Source: a virus
Lineage: Duplodnaviria; Heunggongvirae; Uroviricota; Caudoviricetes
IMG/VR virus record: IMGVR_UViG_2703718798_000012
Location: 1-14,664 of that record
DNA length: 14,664 bases
Reading direction: 5' to 3' (one strand)
Of this stretch, positions 4,397 through 12,287 are shown one piece after another (position 1 is the first letter of the stretch; every line of letters begins with the position of its first letter). The notes beneath the pieces were generated by a model, which was given only the letters and a program-made list of their open reading frames with translations, did not search any database and was not told the origin of the DNA. The position numbers and the translations under genes are program-made.

Positions 4397-5308
4397 TCAC
4401 CAGTTGAAGTTCGTTGAGCCGTAGTCCTGTTCACTGAATCCCGAGATCGGGAGGCTTTTGCCCCGCCCACCTCCGGGGGCTGCTGGCTGTTGCCAGGATT
4501 CCTCGAAATGACGATCGGGTCCAAAGAACGTCGACGCCTGCTTCACGAACTGGGTACCGGTATTTCCAGAGACACGCACCCAGGCGGCATAGCGTTTCAC
4601 ACCGTTGAGCATGGTTTCGGGTGTCACACCTTCCCTGATTCGGGCTTTCCAGGCTTTGAAGGCTGCTGACTTGGAATTACCACCAGCACGTTTGGGATAT
4701 TCCTGCCAGGCCTGTTCAAATTCCGGTGAATATTCCTGTCTGGCAGAACGCGCTGGTGCAGACGCGTCAGCGGATGCGCCAATATCTTGCGGTTCATGTT
4801 TTGAATTTACTGGTGGTTCATGTTTTAAACCTTGTGGATCTGGGGTCAGATTCTGAAGGGTCAAACGCGTATTTTTGCCAGAATCTGAAGGGTCAAACAC
4901 ACCTGAACATACAGATTCTGACGGTTCAGATTTTGAAGGTTCAGAATCTGAAGGGTCACGTAATCCTGAAAGTCTGCGCTGCTGTTTCAGTTCTGCAACC
5001 TTATCCCGCTCAGTTCTGGCAAGCAGCTCAAGCCGATCAGCATTCAGATGATAAAGATTGGACGTATTACGGTTACCTTTGCGGCGTGACTGACGCGTCA
5101 GCCAGCCATCAGCCTCCAGTTCGGAGATTGCCGTTCTGACTGTACTTTCTCCCAACCCAAGCTGTCGGCATATGGTTTCAACACCTGGGTAGCACACCCC
5201 GTCATCATTCGAATAATCCGCCAAGCGCGCCATAATCATCAGTTTTGCACCTTTGATGCCATATGCTGCACATGCATCCCAGACATTACCTAGGATTTTG
5301 CTACTCAT
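4397..5308 (-). CDS. Replication initiator, O-like (N-terminal winged-helix-like domain, repeat-rich linker carrying origin iterons)
   Basis: 303 aa, GGGAGG 6 nt upstream of ATG 5308. Central DPSDSEPSKSEPSE-type peptide repeats are encoded by DNA direct repeats, the arrangement seen in lambda O/ori. Specific family not resolved. Confidence 0.65.
   Translation of the reverse strand: MSSKILGNVWDACAAYGIKGAKLMIMARLADYSNDDGVCYPGVETICRQLGLGESTVRTAISELEADGWLTRQSRRKGNRNTSNLYHLNADRLELLARTERDKVAELKQQRRLSGLRDPSDSEPSKSEPSESVCSGVFDPSDSGKNTRLTLQNLTPDPQGLKHEPPVNSKHEPQDIGASADASAPARSARQEYSPEFEQAWQEYPKRAGGNSKSAAFKAWKARIREGVTPETMLNGVKRYAAWVRVSGNTGTQFVKQASTFFGPDRHFEESWQQPAAPGGGRGKSLPISGFSEQDYGSTNFNW
4846..4960. 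repeat. Origin-like iteron array inside the O-like gene, with adjacent AT-rich segment and a second 12-bp direct repeat (4791..4826)
   Basis: About five copies of TCAGAWTCTGAAGGGTCA-like 18-20-mers (4846..4866, 4878..4898, 4912..4930, 4925..4945, 4941..4960). GGTTCATGTTTT repeated at 4791..4802 and 4815..4826 in an AT-rich stretch 4781..4830. Confidence 0.7.
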
Positions 5309-5529
5309 ACGGCACCTCCCAGACGCTTAAACATTTTTCCGGACTGAAACGCCACCAGCGGATAACTCAGGGTATGAGTACGTCCCTGAACCTGGCAGAC
5401 AACCTTCTGGCTTTCTATATTGACCAGGCAAACCCGCAGAACGTGTCCGTTGCTGGTGGTGAACCACTGCCCCACACGGGGGCAATGGTTGTATCGGTGA
5501 TACAGGAAATTAACGATGTGGCGGATCAT
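5305..5529 (-). CDS. Hypothetical small protein (74 aa), translationally coupled between rha3 and the O-like gene
   Basis: ATG overlaps the upstream stop as ATGA, and its own stop overlaps the O-like ATG as ATGA. No recognisable domain; occupies roughly the cII position. Confidence 0.4.
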   Translation of the reverse strand: MIRHIVNFLYHRYNHCPRVGQWFTTSNGHVLRVCLVNIESQKVVCQVQGRTHTLSYPLVAFQSGKMFKRLGGAV

Positions 5530-6089
5530 GGACGCACCTCCTTGTCAGAACCATTCAGCCTGGAATCAACAAGTGCAGCACCAAAAACAGCATCACCTAC
5601 ACGGTCGTACAGTTTGCTGGCCAGCGGAGATTCAACAGCCTTAAGCATTGGATAAAGCTGGCTTGTCCAGATTTGATGGATTTCACGCAAATGCAGGTAT
5701 ACGCCTCTGGCGTTTCGTGCGACAGCTGACATATCAGACGCATCGGCACCTGATAAACTCTTCTCCATCTGGTTAAAGGCATTGATGTATGCCTCTTTGA
5801 ACCGGGCAGCACGTTTACCAGTGAAGCCCATAGCAAGAAACGCAAAGCCGTCGCGGGTTATTTGATAGCAAGGAAGTTTGCGAGTACCGCCGTTGGGCTG
5901 GCGTACCAAAATTGATGTCTCCGCAAAATTGCGGGCACAAAACTCTGGAGAACAATCCAAAATGCGGATCTTTTTCAGAACATCGTCATGACGTTTAGAG
6001 AAGAAGTCAGCAACAGCCAAAGAAGATGTAACAGCCTGACCATCAACGATGGCAATTTCAGGTTGAGAGAGGGTTGGGAGAGTAGTCAT
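5526..6089 (-). CDS. Phage regulatory protein, Rha family (third tandem paralog)
   Basis: Conservative start ATG 6089..6087 gives 187 aa beginning MTTLPTLSQPEIAIVDGQAV, with the Rha-type motif FSKRHDDVLKKI and ITRDGFAFLAMGFTG. The frame stays open upstream to ATG 6389 (ORF track 5526..6389) and to a conserved ATG at 6230; true start uncertain. Confidence 0.6.
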   Translation of the reverse strand: MTTLPTLSQPEIAIVDGQAVTSSLAVADFFSKRHDDVLKKIRILDCSPEFCARNFAETSILVRQPNGGTRKLPCYQITRDGFAFLAMGFTGKRAARFKEAYINAFNQMEKSLSGADASDMSAVARNARGVYLHLREIHQIWTSQLYPMLKAVESPLASKLYDRVGDAVFGAALVDSRLNGSDKEVRP

Positions 6090-6162
6090 AGTGACAGCCC
6101 CGGTAGTCAGTTTTTTAGAAAACTCACCACATGGGACGCCAATCACAGAGGTGGTGAGACGT

Positions 6163-6243
6163 ACAGGGTTGGCGTTACCGGAGACTACCGAACCCGGCCC
6201 GACCGAAGTCGGCCCTGTACGCCCCACCATAATTTGGGCGTAG
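6163..6243 (-). promoter_or_regulatory. Conserved structured leader element, copy B, upstream of rha3
   Basis: Shares with copy A the 20-mer ACGCC-N2-AATTATGGTGGG and a 3' AACCCTGT block, and has a perfect hairpin CCGAC-UUCG-GUCGG (6199..6212) at the same offset (10 nt after the 12-mer). Confidence 0.5.
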
Positions 6244-6259
6244 TAATGCTCATGACACG

Positions 6260-6281
6260 AAAAAACCGCATGAGCGCGGTT
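6260..6281 (-). terminator. Terminator-like hairpin plus T-tract inside the rha2-rha3 spacer
   Basis: Minus-strand AACCGC-gctcat-GCGGTT followed by TTTT (6-T run in total), about 25 nt upstream of leader copy B. Confidence 0.4.
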
Positions 6282-6385
6282 ATGCTCAGTAATCAATTTC
6301 AGGACGCCAATCCCGGCACCCGTTTTATAAGGTGCCGGAACAGTGTAACGTCCCGGACTTGCAGAATCAATATGCTGGTGGCGCG

Positions 6386-6748: not shown

Positions 6749-6818
6749 TAAGGCAGCCTCCTGTAACAGTGGAACAGTTCCACCACCGGAGGTCTCAATC
6801 TCGCTGGTGGCGGACTGG

Positions 6819-6900
6819 ACAGGGTTGAGACTACCGGCGTTACAGGAAACCGGCGAACCTTTCGGTTCCCCTGCCCAGCCCACCATAATTCTGGCGTGCA
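6819..6900 (-). promoter_or_regulatory. Conserved structured leader element, copy A, upstream of rha2
   Basis: Same 20-mer and 3' block as copy B; perfect hairpin GAACC-GAAA-GGUUC (6855..6868) at the identical offset. Different stem and loop sequence from copy B with pairing preserved. Confidence 0.5.
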
Positions 6901-6910
6901 AGGACGCTGA

Positions 6911-6934
6911 CAACAAAAAAGACGCTGGCGCGTC
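6911..6934 (-). terminator. Terminator-like hairpin plus T-tract inside the rha1-rha2 spacer
   Basis: Minus-strand GACGC-gcca-GCGTC followed by TTTTTTGTTG, about 20 nt upstream of leader copy A. Confidence 0.4.
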
Positions 6935-7242
6935 ATTTGTCGCCTGTAACAATTCCGGGGTCTCACTCCCGATAGTGGATTTTGCCACTATATGTAAAGT
7001 GTGCCGCCGGAATTTAATTTTGTCAACGAGGTTAAATATAGAGTCGCTATGTTGGTGGCGCTTCGCACTCAACAAAATCACGACGAAACAACCACAGCGG
7101 GATGAAGCATTCATGCGGATAACCATCACGCAGGTAAATAACCCGCTGTGTTTCAGACTCCCAGCGTATAACGTGGACGCGACGCCCCCTTCCATCACGG
7201 AACCAGCGATTGAGTACTTGCATGTGTTACCTGTGAGCATAA

Positions 7243-8235: not shown

Positions 8236-8264
8236 ACTATAGCGATTGATTAAAGCGATTGCAA
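8236..8264 (-). promoter_or_regulatory. PR-like sigma70 promoter for the cro-like operon, with two direct CAATCGCT repeats in the spacer
   Basis: Minus-strand -35 TTGCAA (8264..8259), 17-nt spacer, -10 TATAGT (8241..8236). Spacer contains CAATCGCT twice; the 13-mer CTATAGCGATTGA (8237..8249) recurs at 9152..9164. Confidence 0.5.
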
Positions 8265-8282
8265 TGTACGGGAAAGCGGTTT

Positions 8283-8308
8283 GTGTATATATCGCTAAGG
8301 CGATACAC
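8283..8308. promoter_or_regulatory. Inverted-repeat operator candidate upstream of the CI-like gene (PRM region)
   Basis: Core TATCGC-taag-GCGATA (8290..8305), extended by flanking GTGTAT / ATACAC arms. Lies about 30-50 nt upstream of the CI start; promoter hexamers not confidently placed. Confidence 0.4.
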
Positions 8309-9090: not shown

Positions 9091-9151
9091 AACTCCCTAC
9101 GTATCGTCTCATTTCTCTCATAATCTGTTCTTTGCTGCCCAAAATGCATAG

Positions 9152-9189
9152 CTATAGCGATTGACATAACCAAACGCTTTGGCTATTGT
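9152..9189 (+). promoter_or_regulatory. PL-like promoter with operator for the plus-strand accessory/early-left operon
   Basis: -35 TTGACA (9161..9166), 17-nt spacer, -10 TATTGT (9184..9189). Operator 13-mer CTATAGCGATTGA (9152..9164) identical to the PR copy and overlapping the -35; includes the palindrome GCTATAGC. Confidence 0.45.
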
Positions 9190-11050: not shown

Positions 11051-11065
11051 CACATTAAATATTAA

Positions 11066-11090
11066 GAAGAATATAACTCTTCCGTTTTTT
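11066..11090 (+). terminator. Weak terminator-like hairpin with T-tract after the 190-aa gene
   Basis: 5-bp AU-rich stem GAAGA / UCUUC with 7-nt loop, then CG and a 6-T run (11085..11090). Confidence 0.3.
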
Positions 11091-11103
11091 ACTAACCGTT
11101 TAT

Positions 11104-11211
11104 ATGAAAAGCGACCGTGAATTAAGCAGAGTAAAACTGCTTTTAATCCTTGCCACAGTACTGACACTAACAGAAATCATTATTCTCTTTATTGCGCTGT
11201 CTGTCAGTTAA
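11104..11211 (+). CDS. Small hydrophobic peptide (35 aa, single predicted TM helix)
   Basis: ATG 11104 to TAA 11209..11211 encodes MKSDRELSRVKLLLILATVLTLTEIIILFIALSVS. No clear SD. Confidence 0.3.
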   Translation: MKSDRELSRVKLLLILATVLTLTEIIILFIALSVS

Positions 11212-11234
11212 AAATATCGGGATACCACATACCA

Positions 11235-11423
11235 ATGAGACTGTATTTCACAATAGTAATTTTACTGGCAATTATCGCATGCATTTACGGATTACTCGTT
11301 CCGTTCCTTATATCCATGAAGGATACGAGAGCAGTTATTTCTGGCTTTGCACTGGCGTTTCTGACCCCGCCCTGCATTTATGCCATTTACAAGGGTCTTT
11401 CTTTCACTAAGGATAAAAAATGA
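11235..11423 (+). CDS. Small membrane protein (62 aa, two predicted TM helices)
   Basis: Hydrophobic stretches LYFTIVILLAIIACIYGLLVPFLI and AVISGFALAFLTPPCIYAIY. Stop overlaps the next ATG (ATGA). Confidence 0.5.
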   Translation: MRLYFTIVILLAIIACIYGLLVPFLISMKDTRAVISGFALAFLTPPCIYAIYKGLSFTKDKK

Positions 11424-12247
11424 AAAAAATTATTTTTGCTTTAGCCATTGTTCTGCCGACCATTGGTCTTGTCGGTTGCGATCGCGTTGAGCCCGGTAAT
11501 GTTGGCATCAAAGTAAATAAACTGGGCGACGATAAAGGCGTCGGTGAGGTGGTCGGTGTTGGTCGCTACTGGACTGGCTGGAATACTGAAGTTTACATCT
11601 TCCCCACCTTCAAGCAAATGAAGACCTACGATGAACCGTTCAGCTTTCAGATGAGTGACGGCACAACCATCGGCTATCACATCGGTGTGGCCTACAAGGT
11701 TGATCCATCCAAAGTTACTACAGTGTTTCAAACCTACCGCAAAGGCGTGGATGACATTACCGACACTGACCTGCGCCAGAAGATAGCCGACGCACTCAAC
11801 CGACTGGCCAGCAAAATGACCACCGATAAATTTATCGACGGTGGCAAGTCTGAACTGCTGGATTCAGCACTTAAAGATATTCAGGCAGAAATGACACCCA
11901 TCGGCATTCAGGTAATGAGCCTCTCTTATGTCGGTAAACCGGAATACCCGCCAACCGTGATCGACAGCATTAATGCCAAAGTCACAGCGAACCAGAAAAC
12001 CCTGCAACGCGAACAGGAAGTAAAACAGCGCGAAGCGGAAGCCAACATGTTGCGCGCGGAAGCAGCCGGACAGGCTGACGCCATTCGCACAAAAGCCCAG
12101 GCCGAAGCCGATGCTATTCGTTTACGCGGTGAAGCTCTGCGCCAGAACCCCGGTGTTATGGAGCTGGAAGCCATCAATAAATGGAACGGCACACTGCCGC
12201 AATACATGACCAGCGATGCCAATACACCATTTATCCAGGTTAAATAA
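11420..12247 (+). CDS. SPFH/band-7 (prohibitin/HflK-C-like) domain lipoprotein
   Basis: 275 aa, AAGGA 8 nt upstream. N-terminal signal peptide with lipobox LVGC (Cys20). Central domain followed by Ala/Glu-rich coiled-coil tail (EAEANMLRAEAAGQADAIRTKAQAEADAIRLRGEA), the pattern I associate with SPFH proteins; from memory. Confidence 0.75.
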   Translation: MKKIIFALAIVLPTIGLVGCDRVEPGNVGIKVNKLGDDKGVGEVVGVGRYWTGWNTEVYIFPTFKQMKTYDEPFSFQMSDGTTIGYHIGVAYKVDPSKVTTVFQTYRKGVDDITDTDLRQKIADALNRLASKMTTDKFIDGGKSELLDSALKDIQAEMTPIGIQVMSLSYVGKPEYPPTVIDSINAKVTANQKTLQREQEVKQREAEANMLRAEAAGQADAIRTKAQAEADAIRLRGEALRQNPGVMELEAINKWNGTLPQYMTSDANTPFIQVK

Positions 12248-12287
12248 CTTATATGCCCGGCAGGCCGCCGGGCTAAGGGAAAAGCAG

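What the first reader, a model, noticed from the sequence alone, without database searches (positions are those of the whole stretch)
11104..12273. Membrane module in the early-left accessory region: 35-aa TM peptide + 62-aa 2-TM protein + SPFH/band-7 lipoprotein
Three consecutive membrane-targeted products sit where lambdoid phages usually keep lysogeny modulators and superinfection-exclusion genes, and the last two are translationally coupled (ATGA). SPFH proteins (HflK/HflC family) are established modulators of the FtsH protease, which in lambda controls CII and CIII stability. A prophage-encoded, lipid-anchored SPFH protein could therefore act as an FtsH/HflKC mimic influencing the lysis-lysogeny decision, or as a membrane-based exclusion or abortive-infection device. 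The functional assignment is hypothesis only.
Basis: partly seen in the sequence, partly recalled or inferred. Interest (0 to 1): 0.75.

Follow-up and report, generated by a model that had tools for sequence, protein, structure and literature searches.

The report
Phage two-gene membrane cage module
This prophage carries a conserved pair of genes, a tiny two-helix membrane protein and a lipid-anchored SPFH "cage" protein, that recurs in hundreds of temperate and strictly lytic phages, so it is a real, widespread, still uncharacterised phage membrane module and not a lysogeny-specific device.

Summary
Two of the three claimed genes are real. orf62 (11235-11423) is a 2-TM hairpin. The 275-aa ORF (11420-12247) is an SPFH/Band_7 protein (Pfam E 7.6e-31; Foldseek HflK/C, prohibitin, erlin, stomatin E about 1e-13) with a lipobox (LVGC, Asp+2). 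They overlap by ATGA. The 35-aa ORF shows no coding signal (dN/dS about 1.3, start lost in one relative, no SD, absent from other carriers).

The pair sits downstream of a promoter-like site that carries a putative operator copy, between cI and xis-int of a phiP27-like Stx prophage.

New here:
- The hairpin plus SPFH pair is a self-contained cassette found in lambdoid, P2-like, P1-like, SSU5-like, N4-like, rV5-like and jumbo phages (382 phage records).
- In 19 of the top 150 family representatives the two proteins are fused.
- The hairpin's periplasmic turn (LISMKDT) is its most conserved part.

Closest solved relatives are prohibitin and HflK/C, but HflK/C and NfeD membership tests fail and PADLOC finds nothing.

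Most likely it builds a periplasm-facing SPFH cage on the inner membrane early in infection. FtsH is the leading candidate for its target, but this is untested. A role specific to the lysis-lysogeny decision is unlikely to be the general function.

The parts
9152..9189 (+). Context: pL-like early-left promoter-like site (TTGACA-17-TATTGT, 9161-9189), overlapped by a putative 13-nt operator CTATAGCGATTGA (9152-9164) that also occurs at 8237-8249 between cro and cI
   Evidence: Promoter scan, 10 of 12 matches, best in the region. Exact 13-nt repeat D5. Sequences read. Gene order from cI to int is all on the + strand. The scan found fewer promoter-like sites than expected by chance (7 against 11), and control by CI is inferred.
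11051..11234 (+). AT-rich spacer upstream of the module. It contains the 35-aa ORF (11104-11211), which is probably not a gene
   Evidence: dN/dS 1.27, ATG to ATA in L008, no SD, never annotated. GC 0.355. No + strand sigma-70-like site upstream of orf62.
11235..11423 (+). orf62: 62-aa two-helix inner-membrane hairpin (predicted N-in/C-in). Invariant periplasmic turn P23-x-L-I-S-M-K-D-T31 and a basic C-terminal tail
   Evidence: PHROG 1130 at E 1e-22. 35 homologues. Invariant columns. dN/dS 0.26. AF2 helices 2-26 and 31-60. Found upstream of SPFH in many phage lineages. Homologous to the N-terminal domain of the fusion proteins, hhalign 98.5%, E 3.7e-15.
11409..11423 (+). Translational coupling: SD AAGGA (11409-11413) inside orf62, and the ATGA start/stop overlap (11420-11423)
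   Evidence: Sequence. The same 4-nt overlap occurs in P88, Fraca, P. putida, Nevskia, Alcaligenes and jumbo-phage loci; the overlap is 8 nt in Tribble and L120.
11420..11479 (+). Lipoprotein signal peptide (aa 1-19) with lipobox L-V-G-C20. Asp21 at +2 predicts inner-membrane retention
   Evidence: Sequence. GC|DRVEPG is conserved in 27 of 29 aligned relatives and most family representatives carry a lipobox. The +2 Asp rule is established knowledge and was not tested here.
11483..12043 (+). SPFH/Band_7 domain (aa 22-208)
   Evidence: Pfam PF01145 at E 7.6e-31. AF2 pLDDT 80-94 over most of the domain. Foldseek against PDB. dN/dS 0.04 for the whole gene.
11951..12247 (+). Long coiled-coil-type helix (aa 178-242) and conserved C-terminal tail (aa 246-275, K-W-N-G-x-L-P ... 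P-F), the parts that build the wall and cap of SPFH cages
   Evidence: AF2 secondary structure. Invariant W255, N256, G257, P260, P270, F271. Aligned with the HflK and prohibitin coiled-coil regions. The role in oligomerisation is inferred from solved SPFH cages.
12255..12273 (+). GC-rich hairpin (GCCCGGC-AGGCC-GCCGGGC) 8 nt after the stop codon, with no U-tract; marks the 3' edge of the cassette
   Evidence: Sequence. RNAfold -17.1 kcal/mol. Non-homologous GC-rich hairpins follow the SPFH stop in P88, Fraca, Tribble, P. putida and CcrKarma. Function not tested.

Best explanation
orf62 and the 275-aa gene form a self-contained phage cassette that makes a two-protein complex in the inner membrane.

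Shown:
- The two genes are translationally coupled.
- They co-occur across very different phages.
- In many lineages they are fused into one polypeptide.
- The large protein has the full architecture of cage-forming SPFH proteins and a lipoprotein signal.
- The small protein is a helical hairpin whose short inter-helix turn is its most conserved part.

Inferred:
- The hairpin sits N-in/C-in.
- The SPFH protein is exported, lipidated and retained on the periplasmic face of the inner membrane.
- The hairpin's periplasmic turn docks the membrane-proximal SPFH1 region, giving the lipid-anchored protein the transmembrane anchor that HflK/C and prohibitins have built in.
- The long helix and C-terminal tail drive assembly into a closed HflK/C- or prohibitin-like dome that fences off a patch of inner membrane.
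- In this prophage the module is transcribed from the putatively CI-controlled leftward promoter, that is, after infection or induction.

The same cassette is kept under strong purifying selection in virulent as well as temperate phages of many hosts. Its role is therefore a general one during infection, and it is probably aimed at a conserved host inner-membrane component rather than at lysogeny as such.

The leading candidate target (about 25-30%) is the FtsH protease. The closest solved relatives, prohibitin and HflK/C, both cage FtsH-type proteases on the same membrane face. In a temperate phage this would secondarily touch CII/CIII-type control.
For: - SPFH identity and fold.
- Lipobox with Asp+2, conserved.
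- Hairpin.
- Coupling and co-occurrence: the pair is present in phiP27-like, Hendrixvirinae (Fraca), P2-like (P88), P1-like, N4-like (Tribble), BcepF1-like (Maja) and 145-kb myovirus loci. It is present in 15 of 15 loci from species-representative genomes; in L109 and L110 the partner was identified by eye, and in L098 and L099 an IS1 sits between the two genes. It is present in 6 of 6 further contexts at roughly 40-47% SPFH identity, all phage or prophage.
- Rosetta-stone fusions: 19 of the top 150 50%-identity representatives carry the hairpin fused in frame before the signal peptide. One fusion was confirmed on 3 contigs from 3 sequencing runs. hhalign of free hairpins against fusion N-termini gives 98.5% probability, E 3.7e-15. 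The cytoplasmic, basic linker in the fusions fits N-in/C-in topology and a periplasmic SPFH.
- Selection: dN/dS 0.04 for SPFH and 0.26 for the hairpin. SPFH keeps 75-95% identity across unrelated enterobacterial phages.
- Breadth: 382 phage records including many obligately lytic groups; 564 of 5426 complete E. coli genomes.
- Early-operon position.
- Closest solved relatives are prohibitin 1 (E 3.6e-11), prohibitin 2 and HflK (E 1.3e-7).
Against: - No experiment bears on localisation, oligomeric state, partner binding or target.
- The AF2 model is a monomer with a disordered C-terminus, and no complex could be modelled.
- Asp+2 is not universal. Some enterobacterial-phage relatives have Glu, Tyr or Asn at +2, and one large phage-plasmid clade has Tyr in place of the lipobox Cys. 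Retention at the inner membrane therefore rests mainly on the integral-membrane partner and the fusions.
- Some carriers (Bruynoghevirus, Ounavirinae) show no recognisable hairpin gene upstream.
- Foldseek does not single out HflK/C. Prohibitin, erlin and stomatin score alike, so the FtsH link is by analogy only.
- The hhalign score between hydrophobic helices may be inflated by composition.
- No promoter of its own was found, and expression timing is inferred from position only.
Confidence: 0.6

Rival explanations
1. Superinfection exclusion. The periplasm-facing cage and its hairpin occupy or sequester the inner-membrane site that other phages need for genome entry. This would protect an infected or induced cell from competitors, as T4 Imm/Sp, HK97 gp15 or the Ltp lipoprotein do.
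For: Small membrane proteins and lipoproteins made early are the typical form of exclusion systems (established knowledge). The module is an accessory gene with patchy distribution within phage genera (PMC8540360). It lies in early regions of both virulent and temperate phages, which suits phage-phage competition.
Against: No match in PADLOC and no report in the literature. Very strong purifying selection and 75-95% identity across unrelated phages are unusual for arms-race genes and point to a conserved host target. The same family serves hosts from Enterobacterales to Caulobacter and Prevotella, whereas exclusion systems are usually narrow.
Confidence: 0.2
2. Membrane stabiliser or lysis-timing device. 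The cage organises lipids or corrals holins and other phage membrane proteins. This would keep the inner membrane energised and prevent premature lysis or membrane-directed abortive infection until progeny are complete.
For: SPFH proteins are general membrane-microdomain scaffolds, and HflK/C loss affects respiration and stress tolerance (PMC12005517 and PMC10434171, listed). A lipid or physical target would explain the very wide host range. The hairpin resembles class II holins in size and topology.
Against: The module is never next to lysis genes in the loci inspected. It sits among early and DNA-metabolism genes. orf62 matches no holin family in Pfam or PHROGs.
Confidence: 0.15
3. One reading: a prophage HflK/C mimic whose purpose is to set the lysis-lysogeny decision through FtsH control of CII/CIII-like regulators.
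For: Early-left operon position next to cI in this prophage, and the same cI ... hairpin-SPFH ... int layout in a P. putida prophage. Periplasmic orientation and weak HflK/HflC similarity.
Against: The same cassette is in phages with no lysogeny (PMC8540360). It fails the HflK/HflC models. There is one SPFH gene, not a K/C pair, and no transmembrane anchor.
Confidence: 0.08
4. Lysogenic-conversion or virulence lipoprotein, expressed from the prophage and acting on the animal host. A prophage 'HflK/C-like' protein, PM0222 of Pasteurella multocida, is found in outer-membrane vesicles and signals through TLR1/2.
For: PMC9872710. TLR1/2 recognises triacylated lipoproteins. The window prophage belongs to Shiga-toxin-converting phages.
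Against: Homology of PM0222 to this family could not be checked. Presence in soil, water and plant-pathogen virulent phages rules this out as the general function. No promoter of its own was found.
Confidence: 0.04

Closest known systems
HflK/HflC-FtsH complex of E. coli (PDB 7VHP, 7WI3, 9CZ2)
   Same: SPFH domain, long helix and C-terminal cap architecture. Anchored in the inner membrane with the bulk in the periplasm. Best Foldseek hits (E 3e-14) and a weak sequence match to HflK residues 180-306.
   Different: A single SPFH gene instead of a K/C pair. A lipid anchor instead of an N-terminal transmembrane helix. 23-25 bits against equivalog cut-offs of 134-159. A dedicated 2-TM hairpin partner. 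Phage-borne. Association with FtsH is unknown.
Prohibitin 1/2 cage of mitochondria (PDB 8RRH, 9O9Z)
   Same: Best profile match among solved structures (E 3.6e-11 over almost the full length). The cage lies on the side topologically equivalent to the periplasm and partners an FtsH-type (m-AAA) protease (established knowledge).
   Different: About 15% identity in structural alignment. Prohibitins are hetero-oligomers with transmembrane anchors and have no hairpin partner.
SPFH-NfeD operons (QmcA-YbbJ, PDB 8Z5G; stomatin-NfeD in archaea)
   Same: An SPFH gene paired and co-translated with a small membrane-protein gene whose product is expected to sit with the cage. QmcA is a Foldseek and profile hit.
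   Different: The partner here is only 62 aa, has no NfeD/OB-fold domain and no Pfam hit. The complex faces the periplasm, whereas QmcA faces the cytoplasm.
Phage membrane exclusion proteins (T4 Imm + Sp, T5 Llp, TP-J34 Ltp)
   Same: Early-expressed small membrane protein plus exported or lipid-anchored protein in phage accessory regions (established knowledge; resemblance only).
   Different: No sequence or fold relationship. Those proteins are narrow in range and fast-evolving, whereas this family is broad and highly conserved.
phiP27 L05 / PHROG 200 'lipoprotein' and PHROG 1130 'membrane protein'
   Same: The window genes are direct members. phiP27 matches at 99.3% protein and 95% DNA identity.
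   Different: These entries are annotation only ('putative serine protease', 'lipoprotein'). phiP27 does not annotate the hairpin gene. No function or partner relationship was found on record in the papers searched.

Membership tests
SPFH / Band 7 superfamily (Pfam PF01145) | Band_7 domain above the Pfam gathering score | tested here: met
   108 bits against a cut-off of 23.6, E 7.6e-31, covering profile positions 2-176 of 176
SPFH / Band 7 superfamily (Pfam PF01145) | SPFH alpha/beta fold followed by a long coiled-coil helix | tested here: met
   AF2 model. Foldseek probability 1.00 to HflK/C, prohibitin, erlin, stomatin and flotillin
SPFH / Band 7 superfamily (Pfam PF01145) | Assembly into a ring or dome oligomer on a membrane | not testable with these tools
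   Only monomer prediction was available. The C-terminal 30 residues are disordered in the monomer
HflK / HflC (NCBIfam TIGR01933 / TIGR01932) | Score above the equivalog cut-off | tested here: not met
   22.7 and 25.0 bits against cut-offs of 159.4 and 134.4
HflK / HflC (NCBIfam TIGR01933 / TIGR01932) | Two paralogous SPFH subunits encoded together, each with an N-terminal transmembrane anchor | tested here: not met
   One SPFH gene only. It has a lipoprotein signal instead of a transmembrane anchor, and the neighbour is a 62-aa hairpin
HflK / HflC (NCBIfam TIGR01933 / TIGR01932) | Periplasmic orientation on the inner membrane | tested here: inconclusive
   Predicted from the signal peptide, Asp+2, the integral-membrane partner and the topology of the fusion proteins. 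No experiment
HflK / HflC (NCBIfam TIGR01933 / TIGR01932) | Physical association with FtsH | not testable with these tools
   The reported HflK Arg191 contact with FtsH residues 62-64 (PMC12048511) cannot be mapped reliably at this level of identity
SPFH-NfeD operon | Partner carries an NfeD (OB-fold) domain | tested here: not met
   orf62 has no Pfam or NCBIfam hit and is 62 aa, almost all of it two helices
Bacterial lipoprotein (Lgt/LspA substrate) | Signal peptide with lipobox [LVI][ASTVI][GAS]C | tested here: met
   MKKIIFALAIVLPTIGLVGC|D. The Cys is conserved in 27 of 29 relatives
Bacterial lipoprotein (Lgt/LspA substrate) | Acylation, and inner-membrane retention through Asp at +2 | not testable with these tools
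   Asp21 is present. Relatives also show E, Y, N, S or T at +2
Known anti-phage defence systems (PADLOC-DB 2.0) | Match to any defence-protein model | tested here: not met
   0 families for all six proteins of the region at E up to 0.1
Class II holin | Small 2-TM N-in/C-in protein with a charged C-terminus, encoded with an endolysin | tested here: not met
   Size and topology resemble a class II holin, but there is no holin family hit and the gene lies in the early region next to SPFH, not next to lysis genes
Moron (autonomous promoter-gene-terminator unit) | Own promoter upstream and terminator downstream | tested here: inconclusive
   No + strand sigma-70-like site in 11051-11234. A GC-rich hairpin without a U-tract lies downstream. 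GC content steps from 0.355 to 0.50-0.585

The most novel reading that the evidence does not exclude
Phages of many families carry their own 'viral prohibitin'. This would be a lipid-anchored SPFH cage, with a minimal transmembrane hairpin adaptor, that assembles on the periplasmic face of the inner membrane. There it would capture the host FtsH protease, or displace HflK/C from it, and so reprogram membrane proteolysis and stress signalling during every infection. Effects on lysogeny would be only a by-product in temperate phages.
Probability: 0.25. Interest if true: 0.8.

Novelty: new variant of a known kind. Interest (0 to 1): 0.5.

Why it matters
SPFH cages (HflK/C, prohibitin, stomatin, flotillin) are a topic of active structural work, but their clients and purposes are still poorly understood.

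This family is a compact, two-gene, virus-borne version. It is present in about 10% of complete E. coli genomes and in 382 sequenced phages, from Stx-converting prophages to therapeutic lytic phages, where it has been read as a possible marker of temperate lifestyle (PMC8540360). Nothing is known about what it does.

Three points turn a vague annotation ('lipoprotein', 'serine protease', 'HflC-like') into a defined system that can be tested:
- It is a conserved hairpin-plus-cage unit, fused in many lineages.
- It is predicted to face the periplasm.
- It is not tied to lysogeny.

If the target is FtsH, it would be a new way for viruses to control the one essential membrane protease of bacteria. 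If it is an exclusion or membrane-protection device, it matters for phage competition and phage-therapy design. The result also warns against using phage SPFH genes as evidence of a temperate lifestyle.

Tried and rejected
1. The 35-aa ORF as a third component is rejected on dN/dS, start-codon loss, lack of SD and absence from other carriers.
2. An NfeD identity for orf62 is rejected.
3. Known defence systems: PADLOC found nothing.
4. RNA elements in 11051-12273: Rfam gave no hit there. Its only hits were C4/isrK elsewhere in the window.
5. An own promoter for the module: none on the + strand.
6. Using a 30-62% identity family alignment (A2) to fetch diverse loci failed because no segment was conserved enough. 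The closer alignment returned only near-identical IMG/VR loci. Diversity was instead sampled from INPHARED hits, species-representative genomes and encoding contigs.
7. Modelling hairpin-SPFH docking on a natural fusion with a block alignment failed. MAFFT scattered the hairpin sequences over the SPFH columns. The homologue search seeded with fusion P0160 found only unfused close relatives, so fusions are scattered lineage events.
8. Mapping the reported HflK-FtsH contact residue onto the phage protein was abandoned as unreliable.
9. Literature searches for functional work on phage SPFH proteins found only annotation-level remarks and untested lysogeny or adsorption speculation. The link to Pasteurella PM0222 could not be verified because no sequence was available.
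Full report
WHAT IS IN THE WINDOW

The window is the early region of a phiP27-like Shiga-toxin prophage integrated at yecE. It is 99.9% identical to E. coli 88-3493 and 95% identical to phage phiP27.

Gene order on the + strand is: a cI-type repressor, an HTH protein, small ORFs, a 190-aa PHROG 1515 protein, the finding, DUF5406, DUF4222, xis, int. A cro-like gene diverges from cI.

A putative 13-nt operator, CTATAGCGATTGA, lies at 8237-8249 between cro and cI. It recurs exactly at 9152-9164, over the -35 of the best promoter-like site downstream of cI (TTGACA-17-TATTGT, 9161-9189). The promoter scan found fewer sites than expected by chance (7 against 11), so the site itself is only a consensus match. 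Control by CI is inferred, not shown.

CHECK OF THE OBSERVATION

All three ORFs exist at the stated coordinates, and the last two overlap by ATGA.

The 275-aa protein is an SPFH protein:
- Pfam Band_7 at E 7.6e-31 over the whole domain model and PHROG 200 at E 1e-113.
- An AF2 model (mean pLDDT 77) shows an alpha/beta domain, a helix spanning residues 178-242 and a disordered tail.
- Foldseek against the PDB gives HflC, HflK, prohibitin, erlin and stomatin at E 1e-14 to 1e-11, probability 1.00.
- Its N-terminus is a lipoprotein signal with lipobox LVGC and Asp at +2. The junction GC|DRVEPG is almost invariant among relatives while the signal peptide varies freely.

The 62-aa protein is hydrophobic at residues 7-25 and 34-52. 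AF2 predicts a helix-turn-helix. It belongs to PHROG 1130.

Across eight phiP27-like loci, pairwise dN/dS is 0.04 for SPFH, 0.26 for orf62 and 1.27 for the 35-aa ORF. The 35-aa ORF also has ATA in place of ATG in one locus, lacks a Shine-Dalgarno sequence, is never annotated by PGAP and is absent from other carriers of the module. I therefore treat 11051-11234 as an AT-rich spacer and the module as two genes. The sample is small and its pairs are not independent, so a translated micro-ORF is not strictly excluded.

THE PAIR IS A CONSERVED CASSETTE

A homologous 2-TM gene lies immediately upstream of the SPFH gene in many places. It usually overlaps the SPFH gene by 4 nt, or by 8 nt in Tribble and L120, and by about 20 nt in Maja. 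Carriers:
- Hendrixvirinae phage Fraca, P2-like phage P88 and a P1-like phage.
- N4-like Klebsiella phage Tribble and Burkholderia phage Maja.
- A 142-kb Salmonella myovirus, with one ORF in between.
- 15 of 15 loci from species-representative genomes, reaching down to Luteibacter, Dyella and Sutterella at 45-49% SPFH identity. In the two Sutterella loci the partner was recognised by eye rather than by the motif search. In the Shigella/E. coli lineage an IS1 has inserted between the two genes.
- Six further contexts at roughly 40-47% identity: prophages of Nevskia, P. putida and Alcaligenes, two large virulent-type phage contigs and a 327-kb jumbo phage.

The neighbours differ everywhere, so the unit is the pair alone. 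A Bruynoghevirus and an Ounavirinae phage lack a recognisable hairpin gene. A phiCbK-like phage has a larger multi-TM protein in its place.

ROSETTA-STONE FUSIONS

An exhaustive HMMER search of 1.84 billion representatives found 2881 relatives at E up to 1e-3 and 218 at E up to 1e-30.

Nineteen of the top 150 are 320-390 aa long. Each consists of an N-terminal 2-TM domain, a short basic linker, the signal-peptide-like hydrophobic segment with its lipobox, and then SPFH. A profile of free-standing hairpins aligns to the fusion N-termini with 98.5% probability, E 3.7e-15, sharing the motif P-x-L-(I/V)-S-x-x-(D/S)-T. Hydrophobic composition may inflate this score.

One fusion, P0160, was recovered on three contigs from three sequencing runs, next to a phage-type PD-(D/E)XK exonuclease gene. 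Its nearest relatives are unfused, so fusions arose repeatedly.

The fusions support three points: that the two proteins interact physically, that the hairpin is N-in/C-in, and that the SPFH domain lies outside the cytoplasmic membrane. Within the enterobacterial hairpins the invariant block is P23, L25, I26, S27, M28, K29, D30, T31, that is, the periplasmic turn. This fits a contact on the periplasmic side.

DISTRIBUTION AND WHAT IT IMPLIES

tblastn finds the SPFH protein in 382 of 50,697 phage records. They include temperate phages (phiP27-like, P88, P1-like RCS47, SSU5-type phage-plasmids). They also include many virulent groups: N4-like, PVP-SE1/rV5-like, Erwinia Ounavirinae, Bruynoghevirus, phiCbK-like, jumbo, Lak and crAss-like phages. 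Identity reaches about 72% in N4-like Klebsiella phages and 80% in Erwinia phage Pastis.

In the virulent phages the gene sits among early and DNA-metabolism genes, not lysis genes. The module is present in 564 of 5426 complete E. coli genomes, with 226 places on plasmids.

Strong purifying selection, together with spread across unrelated phages and distant hosts, suggests a conserved host target and a role in infection in general. It argues against a role limited to the lysis-lysogeny decision. It also weighs somewhat against a classical arms-race exclusion protein.

COMPARISON WITH KNOWN FAMILIES

By sequence, the best solved relatives of a 40-member family profile are prohibitin 1 (E 3.6e-11), prohibitin 2, HflK (1.3e-7), QmcA (2e-7) and HflC (3e-6). 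The single sequence hits HflK at E 7e-4.

It is not HflK or HflC. It scores 23-25 bits against cut-offs of 134-159, there is one gene rather than a pair, and it has a lipid anchor rather than a transmembrane helix. The partner is not NfeD. PADLOC finds nothing.

Prohibitin and HflK/C both cage FtsH-type proteases on the periplasm-equivalent side (established knowledge; PMC12048511). This is why FtsH is my leading candidate target. The argument is by analogy, and Foldseek scores stomatin and erlin about as well.

MECHANISM

Shown: a coupled, co-inherited, sometimes fused pair; the SPFH cage-type architecture; a lipoprotein signal; a hairpin with a conserved turn; a position in early regions.

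Inferred:
- The SPFH protein is exported, lipidated and retained on the outer leaflet of the inner membrane.
- The hairpin turn docks the SPFH1 region and supplies a transmembrane anchor.
- The helix and tail build a closed dome.
- The dome fences off a membrane patch holding a host machine, which may be FtsH (about 25-30%), a DNA-entry route (exclusion, about 20%), or lipids or holins (stabilisation or lysis timing, about 15%).

The lysogeny-specific reading (about 8%) and a virulence-lipoprotein reading based on Pasteurella PM0222 (PMC9872710; about 4%) are minor.

LITERATURE

No functional study of a phage SPFH protein was found. Genome papers call it a lipoprotein, serine protease or HflC-like moron. 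They speculate on lysogeny (PMC10269572, PMC8540360) or adsorption (PMC13239085), and one notes its presence in obligately lytic phages. I found no mention of the hairpin partner or of the fusions.

VERDICT

This is a real, ordinary-looking but uncharacterised phage module. The gene itself has been known since phiP27 L05. The two-component organisation, the predicted topology and the breadth across lytic phages are the new points. I rate it a new variant of a known kind, with interest 0.5.

Noticed in passing
window 6147-6335 and 6803-6991 (- strand): Two tandem copies of a C4 antisense RNA (82 bits each) followed by an isrK Hfq-binding sRNA (60-64 bits). They lie inside the 5' parts of the ORFs annotated as Rha-family and BRO-N proteins. 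This looks like a duplicated P1/P7-type (immI-like) antirepressor control unit, and the annotated ORF starts may be over-extended.
   Followed up: no
window 8237-8305 and 9148-9164: Putative operator repeats: AGCGATTG twice, 13 nt apart, at 8241-8261; a palindrome ATCGCTAAGGCGAT near 8292-8305; and an exact 13-mer copy at 9152-9164 over the -35 of the leftward promoter-like site.
   Followed up: partly
window 12255-12273; L003, L005, L012, L016, L117 just after the SPFH stop codon: GC-rich hairpins follow the SPFH stop codon in unrelated phages, each with a different sequence and mostly without a U-tract. They could be a convergent 3' boundary (RNA stabiliser, weak terminator or recombination joint) of the cassette.
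   Followed up: partly
L098 and L099 (Shigella flexneri and E. coli), about 5210-6000: In the very common Shigella/E. coli variant (cluster P0001, 1366 member sequences) an IS1 copy, recognised by eye from its terminal repeat, sits between the hairpin gene and the SPFH gene and uncouples them.
   Followed up: partly
proteins P0107, P0109 and relatives (contigs of about 110 kb, 175 contigs for P0109): A clade on contigs of about 110 kb (contig size suggests phage-plasmids) has Tyr instead of the lipobox Cys (IIGY|DRVEPG). It may carry an alternative Cys five residues upstream (AAIC). The lipid anchor may have been lost or moved there.
   Followed up: no
window 11179-11207 (- strand): A promoter-like site (CTGACA-17-AATAAT, 10 of 12 matches) inside the spacer points leftward, antisense to the 190-aa gene. 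Its significance is unknown.
   Followed up: no
L105 (Yersinia pestis NCTC5923, 108-kb contig) and the Kluyvera, Buttiauxella and Lelliottia contigs L102-L104, L106: The module, with its hairpin, is present on contigs of 58-109 kb in several Enterobacterales including Y. pestis. The size suggests SSU5/pMT1-type phage-plasmids.
   Followed up: no
L117 (Pseudomonas putida prophage): The layout matches the window at about 40% protein identity: a cro-like gene diverging from an S24 repressor, then a GerE-like gene, hairpin, SPFH, and finally integrase. The early-left placement is therefore conserved across bacterial orders.
   Followed up: partly
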